A stretch of 64,000 nucleotides of DNA from contig JAFATB010000014.1 of NCBI GenBank assembly GCA_019244185.1, forward strand, positions 352,001-416,000. The letters run 5' to 3'. The position numbers and the translations under genes were made by a program. Below the pieces are notes generated by a model, which made no database searches, was not told the DNA's origin, and worked only from the letters and a program-made list of their open reading frames with translations. Positions 1-8,085 of the stretch are shown piece after piece. The stretch comes from Acidobacteriota bacterium. GTDB taxonomy: Bacteria; Acidobacteriota; Thermoanaerobaculia; Gp7-AA8. How positions within the stretch are numbered: the stretch's first letter is position 1; the number at the start of each line of letters is the position of its first letter.

Positions 1-638
<638 letters not shown>

Positions 639-642
<4 letters not shown>

Positions 643-1694
643 ACCGCGCGCTCGCGGCCGCCGTCGTGCTGCTCGCGGCGCTGCCGCTGCACGCGCACGA
701 TGACGACGCGCCGCGCGCGGATCCGAAGATCGTTGCGTACGCGCTGAGCTCACCCGAGCGCGCGTGGAACTTCATCACGGCGCCGGAGTCGGCATACGCG
801 GAGCGGCTCGCGGTCGCGCGCGAGGCGGCGACGAAGTTTCCTCTGGCGGCGTTAGTGCCGCGTTACTTCGAAACCAGCGGCGTGACGGCGGAGCGGTATC
901 CGGAAGAGCGGCCGAATGGCGTGCACAGCTACGAGGTCCGCGCGGACGTCACTCCGGTGATCGACCTCGCTCCGCATGTGGTGTCTTCGCGGTCGACCGG
1001 TCGTCCGCTGACGTTCGCCGAACGCGCGCGCCAGCCGTGGCAGCAACAGGTCTCCGACGCCGCAGCCGCGTACTGGCAGACGCTGCAGCGCACGCGGACG
1101 GCGGACGACTGGTACGCGTACGCGCGCACGCTGCCGTGCCGCTCGCGCGTGGACGTGGCCCGTTTCCGCCAAGTCGTGCGAGCCGGGGCCATCCATGCGG
1201 ACGTTCCTCCCGACGACATCGCCGGCGCGTGGCGCAATCTCATCCGCCGCTCCGGCGCCGAGGTGGAGTGGTCGGCCGATGACGTCTTCCGCAATCCGCG
1301 CGGTCGCGAAGCGATGGCGGCGCTGCTGCTGCTCGAGCTGGTGAAACGCGATCACGTCTACGAGGCCGCGTTCTACACCGGCTACATGACCGGCATCCCC
1401 GCCGCGGAGCCGCTGCGCGATGCGGTCGCGTACGAGGCCGGCCGGCGCATTCTCGCGAACAGCGAGATCCGTTCGTACGAGCGCGCCACGGGCGGCTTTC
1501 TGCTCGCGAAGATGTACGGCGACATGCTCGCGCCGTACGACGACACGCTGTTCGAAGCGAAGCACGCAGCGCTGATCGCCGCTTTCACGCGTTGGTTCGC
1601 CGCGCACGAGGAGACGCTCGCCGCACGCGCGCGCCTTGCAGCGCCGGCTATCGCCGCCGCGGAGGCGCGCTACACCTCGGAGCTCTGCAAATGA
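639..1694 (+). CDS. Secreted hypothetical protein, tandem paralog A
   Basis: GTG at 639 overlaps the moxR TGA (GTGA). Signal peptide MNRALAAAVVLLAALPLHA. Clearly homologous to the next gene. Confidence 0.85.
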
Positions 1695-2749
1695 GACGCG
1701 CGCTCGCGGCCGTCTTCGTGATCCTCGCGGCGCTGCCGCTGCACGCGCAGGATGACGATGCGTCGCGCGCGGATCCGAAGATCGTCGCGTACGCGCTGAG
1801 CTCCACGGAGCGGGCGTGGAACTTCATCACGGCGCCGGAGTCCGGCTACGCGGAACGGCTCGCCGTCGCGCGCAAGGCCGCGCTCGCGCTGCCGCTGTCG
1901 TACCTTCCGCGATACTTCGCGGCGCGCGACGCGACCAACGGCCGCTGGTACGTGCAGATGCCGCCGGAAAGCGCCTTTGCCACGGTCTACATTCCTCAGC
2001 CGCACGGCACGATCGAGGTCCTCGGACATCTGTTCCAGGTGCCGGAGAAGCTGATTCCGTTTCCGAGGACATTCGAAGAGCGCGCGCGTACGCCGTGGCC
2101 GTGGCAGGTCTCCCGCGCGCTGGCGGAGTACTGGCAGGAGCTCGTCCGCCATCGGCCCGCGGACGAACTGTTCGCGTACGCGCGCACGATGCCGTGTCGG
2201 TCGGACGAGGAGCAGCGGCGGTTCCTCGACATCACGTATCTCTCGCTCGTTTTTCCGGCGGTCGCGCCGGACGACATCGAAGGTGCGTGGCGCAACATCG
2301 TGCGCCGTCAGGAGGGCGGTGCCGCGATCCTCGTCAACGGCGCGATTCCGGCACAGGGACGGGAGATGCTCGTCGCGCTCGTTGCGCTGGAGCTCGCGCG
2401 GCAGGACAAGGTCAGCACCGCCGCGTTCCATCTGAAAACGCTCGTTTCGGATGTGGATGATGCGGACGTACGCGACTTTCTCGCCTACGAGATCGGCCGC
2501 CGCATCGTTGCCAATCGCGCCATCTCTCTCGACGAGAGAGCCGACGCCGGCTTCATGGTCGCTTGGACGTACGACGACAAGCTCATTCCGCTCGAGAAGC
2601 GCTACAGCAAAGAACTGTACCCGGCGCTGATCGCCGCGTTCACGCAATGGTTCGCCGCGCACGAGGAGACGCTCGCCGCACGTGCGCGACTCGCGGCGCC
2701 GGCCATCGCCGCCGCGGAGGCGCGCTACACGTCGGAGCTCTGCAAGTGA
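1569..2749 (+). repeat. Near-identical direct repeats at paralog 3' ends (1569-1694 and 2624-2749); 5' ends also repeated (about 639-830 and 1691-1882)
   Basis: gcgctgatcgccgc...ttcgccgcgcacgaggagacgctcgccgca...cggagctctgcaa-tga occurs twice with mostly synonymous differences. Confidence 0.9.
1691..2749 (+). CDS. Secreted hypothetical protein, tandem paralog B
   Basis: ATGA overlap with paralog A. Signal peptide MRRALAAVFVILAALPLHA. Last 33 aa identical to paralog A. Confidence 0.85.
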   Translation: MRRALAAVFVILAALPLHAQDDDASRADPKIVAYALSSTERAWNFITAPESGYAERLAVARKAALALPLSYLPRYFAARDATNGRWYVQMPPESAFATVYIPQPHGTIEVLGHLFQVPEKLIPFPRTFEERARTPWPWQVSRALAEYWQELVRHRPADELFAYARTMPCRSDEEQRRFLDITYLSLVFPAVAPDDIEGAWRNIVRRQEGGAAILVNGAIPAQGREMLVALVALELARQDKVSTAAFHLKTLVSDVDDADVRDFLAYEIGRRIVANRAISLDERADAGFMVAWTYDDKLIPLEKRYSKELYPALIAAFTQWFAAHEETLAARARLAAPAIAAAEARYTSELCK

Positions 2750-3735
2750 GCTTCGAGTTCAACGGCGTCGTGCGCCTCACGCGCATCGGCACGACCTACA
2801 TCCTCTCCACGATCGTCCTCGCCGTGGCCGCGCTGAACACGGGCAACAACGCGCTCTACATCGCCGTGTCGTTCATGCTCGGCTGCCTGCTGCTCTCCGG
2901 CATGGCCTCGCGCGGCGGACTGAAAAGCATCACCGTCGAAGTCGGCGGCATCGGCGAGGCGTGGGCGGAACATCCCGCCGACGGCACGCTGCGCGTCCGC
3001 AACCGCTCGCGCATCTGGAACGTGCGCGACGTCGTGCTCGTCTCCGACAGCCTCGCCGCGCCGGTGCTGATCCCGCTCCTGCCGCGCCGCGCCGAACGGC
3101 TCGTGCCCGCGTCGTTCCTCTTCCATCGCCGCGGCCTCGCGCGCGTCACCGCCGTCGACTCGTACACGCGCTATCCGTTCGGCTTCTTTCTCAAGAAGCG
3201 CCGCCTGCGCGTCGCCAGCGAAGTGGTCGTCTTTCCGAAGATCCTCGCGAACGCGGCACTCGAAGAACGCTACCGCGCCGTCGCGGGCGAGGACGCGGGC
3301 TCGCAGCGTCCCGGCGCCGGCTCGGAGATCCACGCGTTCCGCGAGTACACGCGCGGCGACTCGCTGCGTCACGTGCACTGGAAAAAGTCCGCGAGCCTCG
3401 GCCGCTGGATCATGAAGCAGACCGAGCTCGAGTCCGCGCGCTCGGTGCACGTGGTCGTCGATCCGTACAAGCCGCGCGAGGTCAGCGACGCGGCGTTCGA
3501 GGAGATGATCAGCGCCGCGGCGACATTCCTCCTCGATGCCTCGCGCCGCGGCGCCGACGTCACGCTCTCGCTGCCGCGCGTCGACCTCCGCGCGCGCTCC
3601 GGCGAGTCCGCCGCGCCGCTCTTCCGCGCGCTCGCGCTCCTCGAGCCGCGCTTCGAGCCGCTGCACGCGACCATCGATCGCGACACCGTCTTCTTCTCGG
3701 CCGCCGGAGGGACTCGTGTCCAGCAAAGCGCGTGA
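2746..3735 (+). CDS. DUF58 domain-containing protein
   Basis: GTGA overlap. AALNTGNN, TRYPFGFF and REYTRGDSLRHVHWKKSA (DUF58 signature). Lies between moxR and a transglutaminase. Confidence 0.92.
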   Translation: MSFEFNGVVRLTRIGTTYILSTIVLAVAALNTGNNALYIAVSFMLGCLLLSGMASRGGLKSITVEVGGIGEAWAEHPADGTLRVRNRSRIWNVRDVVLVSDSLAAPVLIPLLPRRAERLVPASFLFHRRGLARVTAVDSYTRYPFGFFLKKRRLRVASEVVVFPKILANAALEERYRAVAGEDAGSQRPGAGSEIHAFREYTRGDSLRHVHWKKSASLGRWIMKQTELESARSVHVVVDPYKPREVSDAAFEEMISAAATFLLDASRRGADVTLSLPRVDLRARSGESAAPLFRALALLEPRFEPLHATIDRDTVFFSAAGGTRVQQSA

Positions 3736-5692
3736 GCTCGAGGCGCTGGCGCTGCCGACGTTCGCCGCGGTGCCGCTGTATCTCACGGCCGCGATCGGCG
3801 TGCTGCCGCTGATTTTCTTCCACGTGGTGATGCTCGGCATCGCCGTGCGCGTCGCCTCCGGACGCGGACCCGATCTCTTCCCCGCGCGCCTCATGCGCTG
3901 GATCGCCGTCGCCTACGTGCCGTTCTACGTCGTCGACGCGGCCGTGCTCTCGCGCAGCGCGATCGCGGCGTCGACGCACCTCGTGCTCTTCATCGCCGCG
4001 TATCAGCCGAGCGAGTCGGTGCTCCGCCAGAACCACGCGCAGCGGATGCTCACCGCCGCGCTCATCGCCGTGGCAAGCCTCGCGACGTCGACGCACATCA
4101 CGGTGGTGCTGTTCGTGATCGGCTTCGCGTTCCTGATGTTCCGCCAGCTCGTCTTCGCGAGCCACGCGGAAACGATGCGCTCCCTCGGCCGCACCTACGA
4201 GGACGCGCCGTCCGGCCGCGCGGCGCTCTTCTATCTCACCGGCGCGACGCTCATCGGCGCACTGCTCTTTCCGCTCCTGCCGCGCGTGCGCAATCCGTTC
4301 ATGCAAGGCATCACCGGCTCGCTGCCCGGCGCGACGACCGCGCTCAGCGAGACGATCGATTTCCGCGAGCCGCGCGTGACGCCGGGCGATGCCACCGTCG
4401 TCGCGCGCATCTGGATGAACGAGCGCACCGCCGCGCTGTTCACGCCCGTGCGCCTGCGCGGGACGCTGTACGACCACTGGGACGGCGGCGAATGGATCCA
4501 GTCGTTCCGCGGCCTGCGCGAGGTCGTGCCGCACGGCGGCGTCTATCAGGTCGAGAAACCCGGCGGCGAAGTCCGCGACGCGGTGATCCAGCTGCGCCCG
4601 CAGCAGGGCCGCCTTTATCTCCCGTCCGGCACGTTTGCGATGACGGGCATCAACAGCCTCTACGAAGGTCCCACGCGCGGCGCGTACTACACGTACCAGA
4701 ACGGCACGCTGAATTTCGATCTGCGCCTCGCCACGGAAACCGCGCCGCTGCGCCCGCAACGCATCCGCCCCACCGGTTATCCCATTCGCCCGGAGATCGC
4801 CGCGCTCGCTCACGGGATCATTGGCAACGAGCAGCGCCCCGAACGCCGCGCGCGCCTCATCGAGCAGTGGATGCTCCGCAACTTCCGCTACGTGCCGAAC
4901 CCCGCGACGCCCGACCACCCGATGACGGTCGACGATTTTCTGCTGCACGTCCGCGCCGGCCACTGCGAGTACTTCGCCGCGGGTATGGTCGTGCTGCTGA
5001 CCGCCGTCGACGTGCCCGCGCGCATCGCCGGCGGTTTCTACGGCGGCCGCTACAACCCGCTCGCGCGCTACTACACGCTGCGCCGCGAGGACGCGCACGC
5101 ATGGACGGAAGTGTGGGACGGCGCGCGCTGGCAGACGTTCGACTCGACCCCGCCCTCCCTCCGCCCCGGCAGCGACGCGCCGTCCGCTCTCCGCGCGTAT
5201 TTCGCCGCGCTCGCCGATTCGGTCACCTACGTCTGGGACCGCTACGTCCTCACCTTCGGTCTCTCGGATCAGATCGCACTCTTCTCCGACCTCTTCACGT
5301 GGATCCGCGACGCCGCCGCGGTCGTCCGCCTGCACGCGATGACGGCGACCGAATCGGCCTCGTCTCTCGCCTTACCTCTCACCGCACTCGCATTGCTCGC
5401 TCTCGCAACGACGCTCCTGCTCCGCCGCCGGCGCGGCGTCTTCGATCTCCTTGCCCGCGCCCTCGCCGAACGCGGCGTCGCCATCACGCCGTCGATGACG
5501 GTCGAAGACGCACTGCGCGAACTGCGCACCCGCGACAAAGCATCCGCCGACGCGCTTACTCCGCTCGCCGCCCTCTACGAACAAGCCAAGTTCTCGCGCG
5601 ATCCTGCGCGCGTACGCCGCCGCGACTTCCGACGGAGGCTGGAAGCCGACGAGGAGCGCCTCCGGCGGGCCGGCGCGGCCGGCAGCGCTTAG
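3716..5692 (+). CDS. Membrane transglutaminase-like protein (TgpA/DUF3488 family)
   Basis: N-terminal TM helices, LFPLLPR, catalytic GHCEYFA, PARIAGGFYGG and DAHAWTEVW...FDSTP. Confidence 0.92.
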   Translation: MSSKARELEALALPTFAAVPLYLTAAIGVLPLIFFHVVMLGIAVRVASGRGPDLFPARLMRWIAVAYVPFYVVDAAVLSRSAIAASTHLVLFIAAYQPSESVLRQNHAQRMLTAALIAVASLATSTHITVVLFVIGFAFLMFRQLVFASHAETMRSLGRTYEDAPSGRAALFYLTGATLIGALLFPLLPRVRNPFMQGITGSLPGATTALSETIDFREPRVTPGDATVVARIWMNERTAALFTPVRLRGTLYDHWDGGEWIQSFRGLREVVPHGGVYQVEKPGGEVRDAVIQLRPQQGRLYLPSGTFAMTGINSLYEGPTRGAYYTYQNGTLNFDLRLATETAPLRPQRIRPTGYPIRPEIAALAHGIIGNEQRPERRARLIEQWMLRNFRYVPNPATPDHPMTVDDFLLHVRAGHCEYFAAGMVVLLTAVDVPARIAGGFYGGRYNPLARYYTLRREDAHAWTEVWDGARWQTFDSTPPSLRPGSDAPSALRAYFAALADSVTYVWDRYVLTFGLSDQIALFSDLFTWIRDAAAVVRLHAMTATESASSLALPLTALALLALATTLLLRRRRGVFDLLARALAERGVAITPSMTVEDALRELRTRDKASADALTPLAALYEQAKFSRDPARVRRRDFRRRLEADEERLRRAGAAGSA

Positions 5693-6597: not shown

Positions 6598-8085
6598 TCA
6601 TAGTGGCGGCGCGGGCGGTTGCACGTCGAGATCGGCGCGCGTGAAGCCGAGGGAATCGCCGGCTTGGAGGATCACCTTGCAGACGTACTTGCCGGGTGGG
6701 AGCGTCAGCGGCTCCTCGACCACCACGTTCGCGCGCGCGGCGGAGGTGACGTGCAGGCGTTTCGCGTCGTAGCGCACGGCGGCGCCGTGCTCGTCGAAGA
6801 TGTACAGCATCAGCGTTGCGTCGACCTCACGCGTGCCGAACTGCGCGACGAGATCCAGCACGGGGACTTCGACGCGGAGCCGGCCCGCGGACGACGATAG
6901 GGTCGCGGCGAGACCGGTCTGCGGAATGTCGTTCTGCAGAATGTCGGCGATGCGGAGCGCGTCGTTGCCGGAGGACGCGTTGATGTGCGTCGAGAAGCCG
7001 CGGCGGAAGGAGACGTTCGCGCCGCGCGGCAGATTGCGGATGCGCACCTCGATCGTGTTGTCGCCCTTCTTCGCGTTGGCCGGAACGGTGAAGCCGAGGC
7101 GATAGCCGGCGGCGGAAGAAGTCACGACGCGGTTGAGGGCGGTCTTGAAATTGTTCTCGTGCTGGACGAAGAGACCGCCGGTCTGTTGCGCGTAATAGGC
7201 GAGGCCCTCGTTCGCGCCGAGCATACGGTCGCCGCCGACGTCGATCGTATCGATCACCGCGCCCGCGGCGTGGAACGCCTTCACCATCTTCTGCAGCGAT
7301 TCCACGAGGCGCGCGTCGGGCGTGTACGCGTTCGAGTAAACGAGATCCGTATTGAAGCCGGTCGAGAAGACGAGGACGTGTTTGTAGCCTTCGAGCGCGC
7401 CGAGGCGTGAGGCGATGGCGCCGAAGCTGTCGAGCTGATTCTCGATGAGGCGCTTCTCCGGCATGCTCGCGTTGGTCACGCCGATGCTGAGCGCCTCCTG
7501 CGTGAGGACCATCGGCTGGTCGATGAACTCGTCGTCGTCAGGGCGCGTGTCGACGGTCACGACCGGCGCGACGAGCGCCGCGCGTTCCGACGGCGACACC
7601 GCCAGCGACAGCGGATCGTGCGCCTCCGATGCGCTGAGCGTGAGCGCCGCGTGCGTCGCGACGGCGTGGTCGTTCGTGAACGGCACGATGAACTGCGCGC
7701 CGCGCTGCGGCGTGAACGTCGCGACGGCGAAGTAGTCGCTCGGCGGCGCGTGCTCGATCATCGCCATGGCGGCGCGTCGCGCGCGGTCGAGCGCGAGCGG
7801 CTTCGTGAACGCGAGATCGAACATGAGCAGGAACAGGCGCCGCTCGCGGCGGTCCGCCGACGGCGCGCCCGCGTCCGCGAAGTCGATCGTGTCGAAGTAA
7901 TCGATCGGCTGCTTCCTGCCGTTGACCAGGAGCGTGAAGTCCTCGCGCGTGAGATTGCGCACGGGCTGATTGTTCAGCGTGACGTAGACCGGCACGTCGA
8001 CGACGTTCACCGTGACGCTCTCGCGCGTCTGCGCGGCCGCGACGCCGGCCCAGGCGGCGAGGAACAGCAGCATGCGGAAGTTCAT
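6598..8085 (-). CDS. Secreted VWA domain protein, Acidobacterial type
   Basis: Signal peptide, ESVTVNVVDVPVYVT...PVRNLTREDF, GYKHVLVFSTGF, LAYYAQQTGG and YRLGF. Confidence 0.8.
   Translation of the reverse strand: MNFRMLLFLAAWAGVAAAQTRESVTVNVVDVPVYVTLNNQPVRNLTREDFTLLVNGRKQPIDYFDTIDFADAGAPSADRRERRLFLLMFDLAFTKPLALDRARRAAMAMIEHAPPSDYFAVATFTPQRGAQFIVPFTNDHAVATHAALTLSASEAHDPLSLAVSPSERAALVAPVVTVDTRPDDDEFIDQPMVLTQEALSIGVTNASMPEKRLIENQLDSFGAIASRLGALEGYKHVLVFSTGFNTDLVYSNAYTPDARLVESLQKMVKAFHAAGAVIDTIDVGGDRMLGANEGLAYYAQQTGGLFVQHENNFKTALNRVVTSSAAGYRLGFTVPANAKKGDNTIEVRIRNLPRGANVSFRRGFSTHINASSGNDALRIADILQNDIPQTGLAATLSSSAGRLRVEVPVLDLVAQFGTREVDATLMLYIFDEHGAAVRYDAKRLHVTSAARANVVVEEPLTLPPGKYVCKVILQAGDSLGFTRADLDVQPPAPPL

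What the first reader, a model, noticed from the sequence alone, without database searches (positions are those of the whole stretch)
639..2749. Tandem secreted paralogs with fixed ends and variable cores inside the moxR-DUF58-transglutaminase operon
Seen: two ~350-aa signal-peptide proteins are coupled by 4-nt overlaps to moxR, to each other and to DUF58. Their first ~60 aa are nearly identical. Their last 33 aa (WFAAHEETLAARARLAAPAIAAAEARYTSELCK) are identical despite synonymous DNA changes. The middles are homologous but much more diverged, with indels. Both keep one internal Cys (PCRS) and a penultimate Cys. Established: moxR-DUF58-TgpA is normally a contiguous three-gene unit. Inference: this is a diversifying cassette in which conserved ends act as recombination anchors or an invariant docking signal. 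The proteins could be clients of the periplasmic transglutaminase (terminal Lys as amine donor) or immunity-like proteins.
Basis: partly seen in the sequence, partly recalled or inferred. Interest (0 to 1): 0.72.

Follow-up and report, generated by a model that had tools for sequence, protein, structure and literature searches.

The report
Duplicated exported gene inside MoxR operon
Two diverged copies of a gene for an exported helical-repeat protein from an undescribed family sit inside an otherwise standard MoxR-DUF58-transglutaminase operon in one soil-bacterium lineage; the pattern is real, but what the proteins do is still unknown.

Summary
Genes A (639-1694) and B (1691-2749) are 53% identical exported proteins. 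They are joined to moxR, to each other and to DUF58 by 4-nt stop/start overlaps. Their ends are near-identical and their middles have diverged.

They belong to an unnamed family: 144 representative clusters, with no Pfam, NCBIfam, PADLOC or PDB sequence match. The family is marked by a PWPWQ motif and a co-varying cysteine pair, and has a confident HEAT/ARM-like solenoid model.

The pair is an insertion. In 8 of 8 congeners examined, moxR abuts DUF58. No family member was found in 40 relatives or in 400 genomes of the phylum. A related strain's contig carries one A-type copy, so copy number is 0, 1 or 2.

A and B are sister genes, also for the middle alone. B keeps the family motifs; A has lost them.

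Synonymous divergence is lower at the ends. This points to gene conversion on top of structural constraint.

Three distant family members lie nowhere near moxR or TgpA. The link to the transglutaminase is therefore lineage-specific and untested, because the complex predictor was unavailable. I found no support for a multi-allele diversifying cassette or for a terminal-lysine donor role.

Verdict: a moderately interesting new variant of a known operon, with function unknown.

The parts
1..642 (+). 3' part of moxR. The full gene is 320 aa and starts 320 bases before the window. It is the first gene of the operon.
   Evidence: AAA_3 E 3.2e-31 and AAA_lid_2 on the window part. The full gene at L239:7680-8642 scores AAA_3 1.3e-63, and the genes upstream lie on the other strand.
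639..1694 (+). Paralog A (P0001, 351 aa): the derived copy of the exported solenoid protein.
   Evidence: A carries PWQQQ in place of the family's PWPWQ and has lost the L-G and P positions of the hairpin. The model has pLDDT 87.3, with residues 84-119 under 50.
1691..2749 (+). Paralog B (P0002, 352 aa): the copy that keeps the family consensus.
   Evidence: The model has pLDDT 91.3 and pTM 0.86.
639..830 (+). N-terminal conserved block of A. Its counterpart in B is 1691-1880. It covers the signal peptide and the first conserved helices.
   Evidence: 89% DNA identity, dS 0.22, dN 0.09 over 62 codons. Exact matches of 16-29 nt.
1593..1694 (+). Tail of A: the last 33 codons plus the stop. It contains a 35-nt stretch (1593-1627) that is identical to 2648-2682.
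   Evidence: Public-run contigs break exactly at this repeat.
2648..2749 (+). Tail of B. It encodes the same protein sequence as the tail of A, with 7 synonymous differences.
1940..2110 (+). Hairpin plus PWPWQ module of B (residues 84-140), the family hallmark.
   Evidence: Strands at 107-110 and 113-116 in the model. These are the highest family conservation values.
888..1052 (+). The corresponding module of A, which is degenerate and hypervariable between strains.
   Evidence: pLDDT is under 50 for residues 84-119. 14 of the 26 differences from the ortholog P0003 fall in residues 89-121.
1137..1139 (+). Internal Cys codon of A (C167). Its partner is C350 at 1686-1688.
2195..2197 (+). Internal Cys codon of B (C169). 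Its partner is C351 at 2741-2743.
2746..3735 (+). DUF58 gene (329 aa), with hydrophobic N-terminal segments.
   Evidence: PF01882 E 1.4e-5, 24.8 bits against a cut-off of 23.4. Hydrophobic segments. It is 64-73% identical to congener orthologs.
3716..5692 (+). TgpA-type membrane transglutaminase (658 aa). The exported domain is about residues 190-546.
   Evidence: TgpA_N, Transglut_core (2.2e-20) and DUF4129. Hydrophobic segments. Residues 359-478 match PDB 6g49_A at E 3e-16.

Best explanation
A and B are two exported proteins with no recognisable catalytic signature, each probably stapled by a disulfide. They belong to an unnamed, patchily distributed family. Family members have a signal peptide, a conserved N-terminal helical segment, a beta-hairpin with a PWPWQ motif, a HEAT/ARM-like solenoid, and a long C-terminal helix ending in Cys.

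One gene of this family entered the short moxR-DUF58 spacer in the ancestor of this lineage. A related strain carries a single A-type copy there.

The gene then doubled exactly gene-for-gene. Each unit runs from one start/stop overlap tetranucleotide (GTGA) to the next, so an unequal exchange at that microhomology would give the present layout. This step is inferred.

Afterwards the middles diverged. B kept the ancestral hairpin/PWPWQ module. A lost it, and A's loop now changes fastest between strains.

Both ends stayed alike for two reasons. They are part of the family's conserved core. They were also homogenised by gene conversion, as the lower synonymous divergence shows.

The tight overlaps keep translation flowing into the genome's only DUF58-TgpA copy.

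Function is inferred, not shown. I take both to be periplasmic binding or scaffold proteins co-made with the operon. Whether they act on the periplasmic TgpA domain is open.
For: An insertion:
- moxR and DUF58 are adjacent in 8 of 8 congener loci, none of which has an A/B match.
- No family member was found in 40 of 40 relatives or in 400 of 400 other genomes of the phylum.
- TgpA is present in 30 of 30 congeners.

A real family:
- A profile search finds 144 representatives at E<=1e-3 and 84 at E<=1e-10.
- The shared motifs appear.
- 47 of 58 aligned members have a hydrophobic N-terminus.

Disulfide. Of 58 members, 30 have both the internal and the C-terminal Cys, 18 have neither, 10 have the internal Cys only, and 0 have the C-terminal Cys only.

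Fold. The B model has pLDDT 91.3. Its best structural matches are helical-repeat proteins, at Z 9.8 or below.

Sister genes:
- A (with P0003) and B group at 100/100 on the full length.
- They group at 100/99 on the middle alone. There the A branch is 0.96 and the B branch 0.65.

A is the derived copy.

The ends:
- dS is 0.22 and 0.33 at the ends against 0.92 in the middle.
- Synonymous differences at same-residue codons are 14/85 against 38/98, p 0.001.
- 17 of 5000 permutations reach the scan statistic.
- Family-wide conservation alone does not predict the pattern. Residues 121-140 are as conserved family-wide as 41-60, yet A/B identity there is 0.55 against 0.95.

Copy number. A 4232-base contig in run X5 goes from A's body straight into the tail-plus-DUF58 region, skipping 1055 bases. 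Its length equals that of P0003's contig.

The tandem is real:
- Contigs in X1 and X2 tile 400-1622, 1598-2677 and 2653-3000 at equal depth: 36.2/37.1/38.0 in X1 and 74.9/85/75.9 in X2.
- Run X4, which is not flagged as a possible source, holds identical pieces of both A and B.
- P0002 is on record on 3 contigs, the longest 2.36 Mb.

This is the only TgpA locus in the genome.
Against: - No function is shown for any family member.
- Lower synonymous divergence at the ends could also come from nucleotide-level constraint. Signal-peptide codons and the ribosome-binding site of the next gene lie in the last ~15 nt. dS in the middle is near saturation, and some of its windows are poorly aligned.
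- The single copy in X5 can be read in two ways. It may be the state before duplication, in which case B came later from elsewhere. It may equally be a later loss of B by tail-to-tail recombination. I could not read that contig's letters.
- Composition gives no clear sign of foreign origin. GC3 is 0.85-0.86 against 0.89-0.93 in the flanks, and codon-usage distance is within the range of the neighbours.
- The phylum-wide searches scored only 4-6 candidates per genome, so weak members could have been missed.
- The equal-depth tiling comes from runs that may be the source of this assembly.
Confidence: 0.6

Rival explanations
1. A and/or B are dedicated periplasmic partners of the TgpA transglutaminase domain, acting as substrate, regulator or inhibitor. 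The insertion into the operon would then reflect a functional link.
For: - The genes sit inside the operon with stop/start overlaps at all three junctions.
- The insertion is retained in two diverged strains, and here as two copies.
- A and B are exported, like the TgpA domain at residues 190-546.
- The homologous P. aeruginosa domain is periplasmic and active in vitro (PMC3507681, passages read).
- There is precedent for an extracytoplasmic, fast-evolving protein attached to the same trio: the bifidobacterial PFNA cluster (PMC6803598, passages read).
- One distant family member lies beside a papain-like peptidase, and another lies directly behind an M90 peptidase. This is a thin hint of a link to hydrolase-type enzymes.
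Against: - 0 of 3 distant family members examined lie near moxR, DUF58 or TgpA.
- 30 of 30 congeners keep TgpA, and none of the 24 congeners searched with the A/B profile has a family member.
- The terminal Lys is not conserved in the nearest relatives.
- The overlaps can be explained by the need not to interrupt expression of the only DUF58-TgpA copy.
Confidence: 0.3
2. The site is a diversifying cassette. Conserved ends serve as recombination anchors that let different middles be swapped or stacked between strains. A and B would then be alleles brought together rather than an in-place duplication.
For: - The profile is mosaic, with abrupt drops in identity near residues 64 and 316.
- Synonymous divergence is lower at the ends.
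- Copy number is 0, 1 or 2.
- The join in X5 lies inside the shared tail.
- The loop of A is hypervariable between strains, with 14 of 26 differences in 33 residues.
Against: - Only two body types are known.
- The genome has no further copies (2 matches).
- No other B-like or third-type protein was found, whether full-length or fragment, in the 5.8-billion-cluster collection.
- The middles of A and B are sisters at 100/99.
- No recombinase or reverse transcriptase was seen in the genes scanned next to the operon.
Confidence: 0.15
3. A and B are immunity-like or inhibitor proteins against an incoming periplasm-acting enzyme. They would be kept as a small array of diverged paralogs and would merely use the operon for expression.
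For: - Tandem diverged paralogs that are exported.
- A patchy, island-like distribution of the family: next to an AbiEii toxin gene in one genome, and next to an integrase and a papain-like peptidase in another.
- 2 of 351 genomes of Planctomycetota hold a member, both from one order of 17.
Against: - No toxin or effector gene lies beside A/B.
- No PADLOC model matches.
- I recall repeat-protein immunity families only from memory and did not test them.
- The family's conserved hairpin motif is lost in A.
Confidence: 0.1
4. The duplication is an assembly artefact caused by collapsed or chimeric repeats.
For: Short contigs of public runs break at the 35-nt repeat, and no single listed piece spans the whole stretch.
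Against: - The two bodies differ by 45% in DNA, so they cannot be collapsed copies.
- The three pieces have equal depth in two runs.
- The middle piece carries A's tail variant joined to B's start, and the last piece carries B's tail variant joined to DUF58.
- Identical pieces of both bodies are in run X4.
- The protein is on record on 3 contigs, up to 2.36 Mb.
Confidence: 0.03

Closest known systems
MoxR (MRP subgroup)-DUF58-TgpA operon, e.g. P. aeruginosa PA2875-PA2874-PA2873 (tgpA). PMC3507681, passages read; the gene-order statement is cited to Wong and Houry 2012 in PMC6803598, passage read.
   Same: - The same three families occur in the same order.
- TgpA has the same layout: membrane N-terminus, exported transglutaminase domain, C-terminal DUF4129.
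- TgpA matches the solved P. aeruginosa domain 6g49 at E 3e-16.
- It is the sole copy in the genome.
   Different: Two extra exported-protein genes are wedged between moxR and DUF58 and are coupled by overlaps. This is not seen in 8 of 8 congeners.
Bifidobacterial PFNA cluster (pkb2-fn3-aaa_atp-duf58-tgm). PMC6803598 and PMC12067865, passages read.
   Same: A lineage-specific, fast-evolving extracytoplasmic protein is encoded together with the MoxR-DUF58-transglutaminase trio.
   Different: - The accessory protein there is an FN3-domain adhesin placed upstream of the ATPase, with a Ser/Thr kinase.
- Here it is a helical-repeat protein of another family, placed between the ATPase and DUF58, and duplicated.
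- No kinase or FN3 domain was found in the neighbours scanned.
HEAT/ARM alpha-solenoid repeat proteins (best structural matches: Kap95p 2bku_B, CAND1 4a0c_A, designed helical repeats)
   Same: - Residues ~150-325 of the B model superpose on helical-repeat proteins. The best match has Z 9.8, rmsd 4.4 A and 160 residues aligned.
- Atlas feature neighbours of a family member are HEAT-annotated clusters, at scores 0.89-0.91.
   Different: - There is no Pfam HEAT/ARM match.
- Z values are in the range the tool calls common for helical repeats.
- The N-terminal segment, the hairpin/PWPWQ module and the Cys pair have no counterpart in the matches.
Tandem arrays of diverged exported paralogs such as orphan immunity genes (recalled, not tested)
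   Same: Adjacent diverged paralogs that are exported, from a family with a patchy distribution.
   Different: There is no neighbouring effector and no match to defence or immunity models. There are only two copies.

Membership tests
MoxR-DUF58-TgpA operon | MoxR-type AAA+ ATPase as first gene | tested here: met
   AAA_3 at 1.3e-63 and AAA_lid_2 on the full gene. The genes upstream are on the other strand.
MoxR-DUF58-TgpA operon | DUF58 protein encoded downstream | tested here: met
   PF01882 at 24.8 bits against a cut-off of 23.4. It is 64-73% identical to congener orthologs.
MoxR-DUF58-TgpA operon | Membrane transglutaminase with TgpA_N, Transglut_core and DUF4129 | tested here: met
   All three Pfam families are above cut-off. 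It matches 6g49_A at E 3e-16. I read the Cys/His/Asp triad (C417, H461, D476) by eye against a recalled motif.
MoxR-DUF58-TgpA operon | moxR directly followed by DUF58 | tested here: not met
   2.1 kb with two genes lies between them here. They are adjacent in 8 of 8 congeners.
Unnamed PWPWQ exported-solenoid family (defined here) | N-terminal export signal | tested here: met
   Both A and B have one. 47 of 58 aligned members have a hydrophobic N-terminus. This rests on a hydrophobicity scan, not a dedicated predictor.
Unnamed PWPWQ exported-solenoid family (defined here) | Profile match over the full length | tested here: met
   With the A2 profile, B scores 6.7e-89 and A 2.0e-69.
Unnamed PWPWQ exported-solenoid family (defined here) | Hairpin L-G-H..W..P and PWPWQ motif | tested here: met
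   Met by B. Not met by A or by its ortholog P0003, which carry PWQQQ and lack the L-G and P positions.
Unnamed PWPWQ exported-solenoid family (defined here) | Internal Cys (L-P-C) paired with a C-terminal Cys | tested here: met
   Both A and B have the pair. Family co-variation is 30 both, 18 neither, 10 internal only, 0 C-terminal only. The bond itself is inferred.
HEAT/ARM repeat proteins | Sequence match to HEAT/ARM repeat models | tested here: not met
   No such Pfam hit for A or B at E<=1, nor for the 34 relatives at E<=0.01.
HEAT/ARM repeat proteins | Alpha-solenoid fold | tested here: inconclusive
   The best match has Z 9.8, rmsd 4.4 A and 160 residues aligned. The tool warns that Z under about 13 is common for helical repeats. 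Foldseek found nothing at E<=1e-3.
Bifidobacterial PFNA-type cluster | FN3 protein and Ser/Thr kinase beside the trio | tested here: not met
   No FN3 or kinase domain was found in A, B or the neighbours scanned.
Antigenic-variation or diversifying cassette systems | Further silent or variant copies in the genome or population | tested here: not met
   Only the two copies occur in the genome. No third type was found in the protein collections.
Anti-phage defence or immunity systems | Match to a known defence or immunity model, or an adjacent effector | tested here: not met
   No PADLOC hits for A, B or 4 relatives. No effector-like neighbour was seen.

The most novel reading that the evidence does not exclude
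A and B are lineage-specific periplasmic partners of the essential-type TgpA transglutaminase. B would dock through its hairpin/PWPWQ face, and A would be a decoy or altered-specificity copy. The shared ends would be both the common docking core and the substrate for recombination that changes copy number between strains. If this is right, the locus gives a natural handle on the still-unknown substrate or regulation of TgpA-type enzymes.
Probability: 0.2. Interest if true: 0.65.

Novelty: new variant of a known kind. Interest (0 to 1): 0.42.

Why it matters
The MoxR-DUF58-TgpA trio is widespread. In P. aeruginosa, tgpA is reported to be critical for viability (PMC3507681, abstract and passages read), yet the passages I read name no cellular substrate or partner.

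A lineage in which two exported proteins have been built into the operon, with copy number varying between close strains, offers a concrete pair of candidates to test against the periplasmic enzyme domain.

Independently of that, the work defines a protein family that no library I searched describes. It has about 144 representative clusters, a confident fold model, a hallmark motif and a probable disulfide.

The pair is also a clean small example of paralogs whose ends are kept alike while their middles diverge.

If the proteins turn out to be passengers, the finding is an ordinary case of gain and duplication of an accessory gene.

Tried and rejected
Complex prediction
The tool was then declared unavailable. 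Nothing was folded, so binding remains untested.

Expression
- No RNA holder was listed among the sequencing runs.

Searching for related loci
- The search for related loci on genome contigs with A1 matched 27 pattern stretches, none of them a relative.
- A2, A3 and A4 were too diverse for that tool.
- The motif scan of metagenome contigs gave 1 true member among 80 loci fetched with flanks. Two 620-base fragments without context also matched.
- The longer motif scan of genome contigs gave 94 stretches and 0 true members among the loci held.
- The viral-contig scan gave 0 members in 19 loci.
- No fragments were found among shorter proteins.

Family and structure libraries
- No match in NCBIfam or PADLOC.
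- A PDB sequence profile search gave a best E of 0.11, to vimentin, which I take as chance.
- Foldseek against the PDB gave nothing at E<=1e-3.
- Atlas feature search for B gave no usable hit. Atlas structure rows had TM<=0.41 by query.

Other checks
- The promoter and terminator scans found nothing above shuffles.
- Composition gave no clear foreign signal.
- The phylum of the Bryobacterales genome (Acidobacteriota) gave 0 of 301. The tool notes that an empty answer there shows little.
- A joint from 1385 to 2488 in X1/X2 has only 21 letters on one side. I take it as a secondary placement between paralogous stretches.
- The joint from 642 to 2758 in X4 (side 24, 17 letters between) fits a relative without the insertion but is weak.
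- Earlier-findings look-ups by place and by sequence returned nothing.
- A literature search for the motif found only unrelated papers.

I could not see the contigs of the nearer relatives P0005, P0006, P0151 and P0008.
Full report
**What is there**

The first 5.7 kb of the window carry five co-directional genes:
- the 3' part of moxR (1-642);
- gene A (639-1694);
- gene B (1691-2749);
- a DUF58 gene (2746-3735);
- a TgpA-type membrane transglutaminase (3716-5692).

The full moxR gene is 320 codons long, and the genes before it lie on the other strand. moxR therefore opens the operon. pdxJ follows on the opposite strand.

Three successive junctions are 4-nt stop/start overlaps: GTGA, ATGA and GTGA. 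The third base of A's last Lys codon is also the first base of B's start codon. A single synonymous change therefore separates ATGA from GTGA.

**The observation**

A and B are 53% identical (188/354, E 1e-97). Identity is very uneven along the gene:

| Region | Protein identity | DNA identity |
|---|---|---|
| First 62 codons | 84% | 89% |
| Middle 251 codons | 40% | 55% |
| Last 36 codons | 97% | 92% |

The last 33 residues are identical, with seven synonymous differences. Both proteins have an N-terminal hydrophobic export signal, one internal Cys and a penultimate Cys.

**A new family, not orphans**

Neither protein matches Pfam or NCBIfam. A word-based search found only two other proteins: P0003, which is 93% identical to A, and P0004 at 33%.

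A profile search of 1.84 billion representatives found 144 proteins at E<=1e-3 and 84 at E<=1e-10. Most are about 400 residues long.

I scanned 34 of these against Pfam. None has a family over the shared region, and only accessory domains appear in a few longer ones.

The alignment shows:
- a conserved N-terminal segment;
- a hairpin motif;
- a near-invariant PWPWQ motif. Of the 152 proteins held, 107 carry the PW[P/Q]xQ pattern, and only A, its ortholog P0003 and one weak hit have Q in place of the second Pro;
- an L-P-C motif, a W-R-N motif, and a C-terminal helix starting W-F.

Of the 58 aligned members, 47 have a hydrophobic N-terminus and three have a lipobox-like motif. Most of the rest look truncated at the N-terminus.

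The internal Cys and a Cys in the last 15 residues co-vary: 30 members have both, 18 neither, 10 the internal one only, and none the C-terminal one only. Relatedness inflates such counts. Even so, the pattern fits a disulfide that pins the C-terminal tail, which suits an exported protein.

**Fold**

With the 58-sequence alignment, B folds with mean pLDDT 91.3 and pTM 0.86. The model has N-terminal helices, a beta-hairpin at 107-116, a run of paired helices, and a 39-residue C-terminal helix.

Foldseek finds nothing at E<=1e-3. An exhaustive structural comparison gives only helical-repeat proteins. The best is Kap95p, with Z 9.8, rmsd 4.4 A and 160 residues aligned, covering model residues 151-324. 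The tool itself calls that range common for repeat proteins.

A PDB sequence profile search and PADLOC are blank.

No typical catalytic residues stand out among the most conserved columns, which are mostly Trp, Pro, Gly, Arg and Gln. I therefore read the family as binding or scaffold proteins. That is an inference.

**An insertion**

- A TgpA ortholog exists in 30 of 30 congeners.
- None of the 24 congeners searched with the A/B profile, nor any of 16 further relatives, has a family member. Those tallies include the unpublished genomes G002 and G024.
- In 8 of 8 congener loci that I cut out, moxR is followed by DUF58 after a short spacer, with no A/B-like sequence. None of these eight comes from the unpublished genomes.
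- A sample of 400 other genomes of the phylum has no member, though only four candidates per genome were scored.
- A literature passage states that MRP-type moxR genes are often followed by DUF58 and a transglutaminase (PMC6803598, passage read).
- In P. aeruginosa, PA2875-PA2874-tgpA are co-transcribed, and the periplasmic domain 180-544 has transglutaminase activity in vitro (PMC3507681, passages read).
- The window's TgpA has its exported domain at about residues 190-546 and matches the solved P. aeruginosa domain.

**Where the family lives otherwise**

- It is rare in genomes.
  - A specific motif scan of 185,579 species representatives returned no true member.
  - The phylum of a Pirellulaceae genome (Planctomycetota) gave 2 of 351, both in one order of 17 genomes.
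  - The phylum of a Bryobacterales genome gave 0 of 301.
  - Viral contigs gave none.
- I could examine three contexts. None holds moxR, DUF58 or TgpA.
  - L070: the member follows a TatD-like gene and an M90 peptidase on the same strand.
  - G660: it lies near an AbiEii toxin gene and a topoisomerase.
  - G529: it is a lipoprotein, placed divergently from a papain-like peptidase and followed by an integrase.
- The link to the operon is therefore specific to this lineage. The family looks like a mobile accessory gene.
- Composition of A and B is close to the flanks, so any transfer is not recent.

**Copy number and reality of the tandem**

Three runs hold the whole stretch but may be its source. 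A fourth run, X4, from another study, holds identical pieces of both A and B at low depth.

In X1 and X2, contigs tile 400-1622, 1598-2677 and 2653-3000 with no differences and at equal depth. They break exactly at the 35-nt stretch shared by the two tails. The middle piece joins A's tail variant to B's start, and the last piece joins B's tail variant to DUF58.

The protein is on record on three contigs, up to 2.36 Mb. An assembly artefact is very unlikely.

In run X5, a 4232-base contig has the same length as the contig of P0003. It matches 400-1591 with 70 differences and 8 gaps, then continues at 2647-3000 with 9 differences. That related strain therefore has one A-type gene between moxR and DUF58.

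The site thus occurs with zero, one or two copies.

Between the two strains, A differs far more than its neighbours do. Half of the protein differences (14 of 26) lie in residues 89-121.

**History of the pair**

A (with P0003) and B are sisters with full support, both on the whole length and on the middle alone. A's branch is the longer one.

B keeps every family hallmark. A has replaced five of the most conserved positions in the hairpin/PWPWQ module, and that region of its model is unstructured.

The repeat unit runs exactly from one overlap tetranucleotide to the next. There is no similarity upstream of the start codons. I infer from this an unequal exchange at that microhomology.

Synonymous divergence:
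- It is 0.22 and 0.33 at the two ends against 0.92 in the middle.
- At codons that encode the same residue, 14 of 85 differ at the ends against 38 of 98 in the middle (p 0.001).
- A scan over all end sizes is matched by 17 of 5000 permutations.

Family-wide constraint explains part of the conservation at the ends, but not all of it. Residues 121-140 are as conserved family-wide as residues 41-60, yet they are only 55% identical between A and B against 95%. Residues 21-40 and 341-352 are weakly conserved family-wide, yet 90-100% identical between A and B.

Gene conversion of the ends after an old duplication, on top of purifying selection, is the simplest account.

Whether X5 lost B by tail-to-tail recombination or never had it cannot be decided without that contig's letters.

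**Function**

Nothing here shows what the proteins do.

The operon position, the maintained coupling, retention in two strains and the shared compartment argue for a link to the periplasmic TgpA domain.

Three points argue against it. The family elsewhere has unrelated contexts. The congeners do without it. And any insert into the only DUF58-TgpA operon would have to preserve downstream translation anyway.

I put the dedicated-partner reading at about 0.3. The complex prediction that could have shifted this was not available.

The terminal Lys proposed as amine donor is not conserved in the nearest relatives. A multi-allele cassette is not supported.

**Earlier notes and verdict**

Earlier notes of this scan describe other TgpA/DUF58 modules that are accompanied by lineage-specific orphan genes. 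I treat these as leads only.

Verdict: a real and well-characterised local variant of a known operon, carrying a duplicated member of an undescribed exported protein family. It is moderately interesting.

Noticed in passing
window 6598-8085 (-): A 495-aa ORF with a signal-peptide-like N-terminus and no Pfam match at E<=1e-4. It lies just beyond pdxJ, downstream of the operon.
   Followed up: partly
L243:6802-7797 (-) and L243:7889-9340 (+): In genome G529, a family member with a lipobox-like N-terminus lies divergently next to a papain-like cysteine peptidase (PF00112, 24.4 bits) and is followed by a phage-type integrase. This suggests an island context.
   Followed up: partly
L070:5130-8296 (-): On this metagenome contig, a TatD-like gene, an M90 (MtfA-type) peptidase and a family member follow one another on the same strand, with 117 bases between the last two. 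An ECF-type sigma factor with a long extension lies 2.4 kb away.
   Followed up: partly
window 1705-1878, 2314-2400, 2575-2661: Run X5, whose main contig has only the A-type gene, also holds short pieces at least 85% alike on parts of B. They run on into unlike sequence (loose ends at 1713, 1858, 2397, 2641). They could be other organisms' genes or a further relative of B.
   Followed up: no
window 888-1004 (A residues 84-122): Between this genome and the X5 strain, this loop of A has clustered substitutions and small indels. moxR (3 listed differences in 400-642) and the start of DUF58 are far more alike between the two strains.
   Followed up: partly
alignment A2, N-terminal region before the first conserved helix: A subgroup of family members carries an extra pair of cysteines about 8-10 residues apart, just before a G-A-D motif. 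This suggests a second disulfide in that subgroup. A and B lack it.
   Followed up: no
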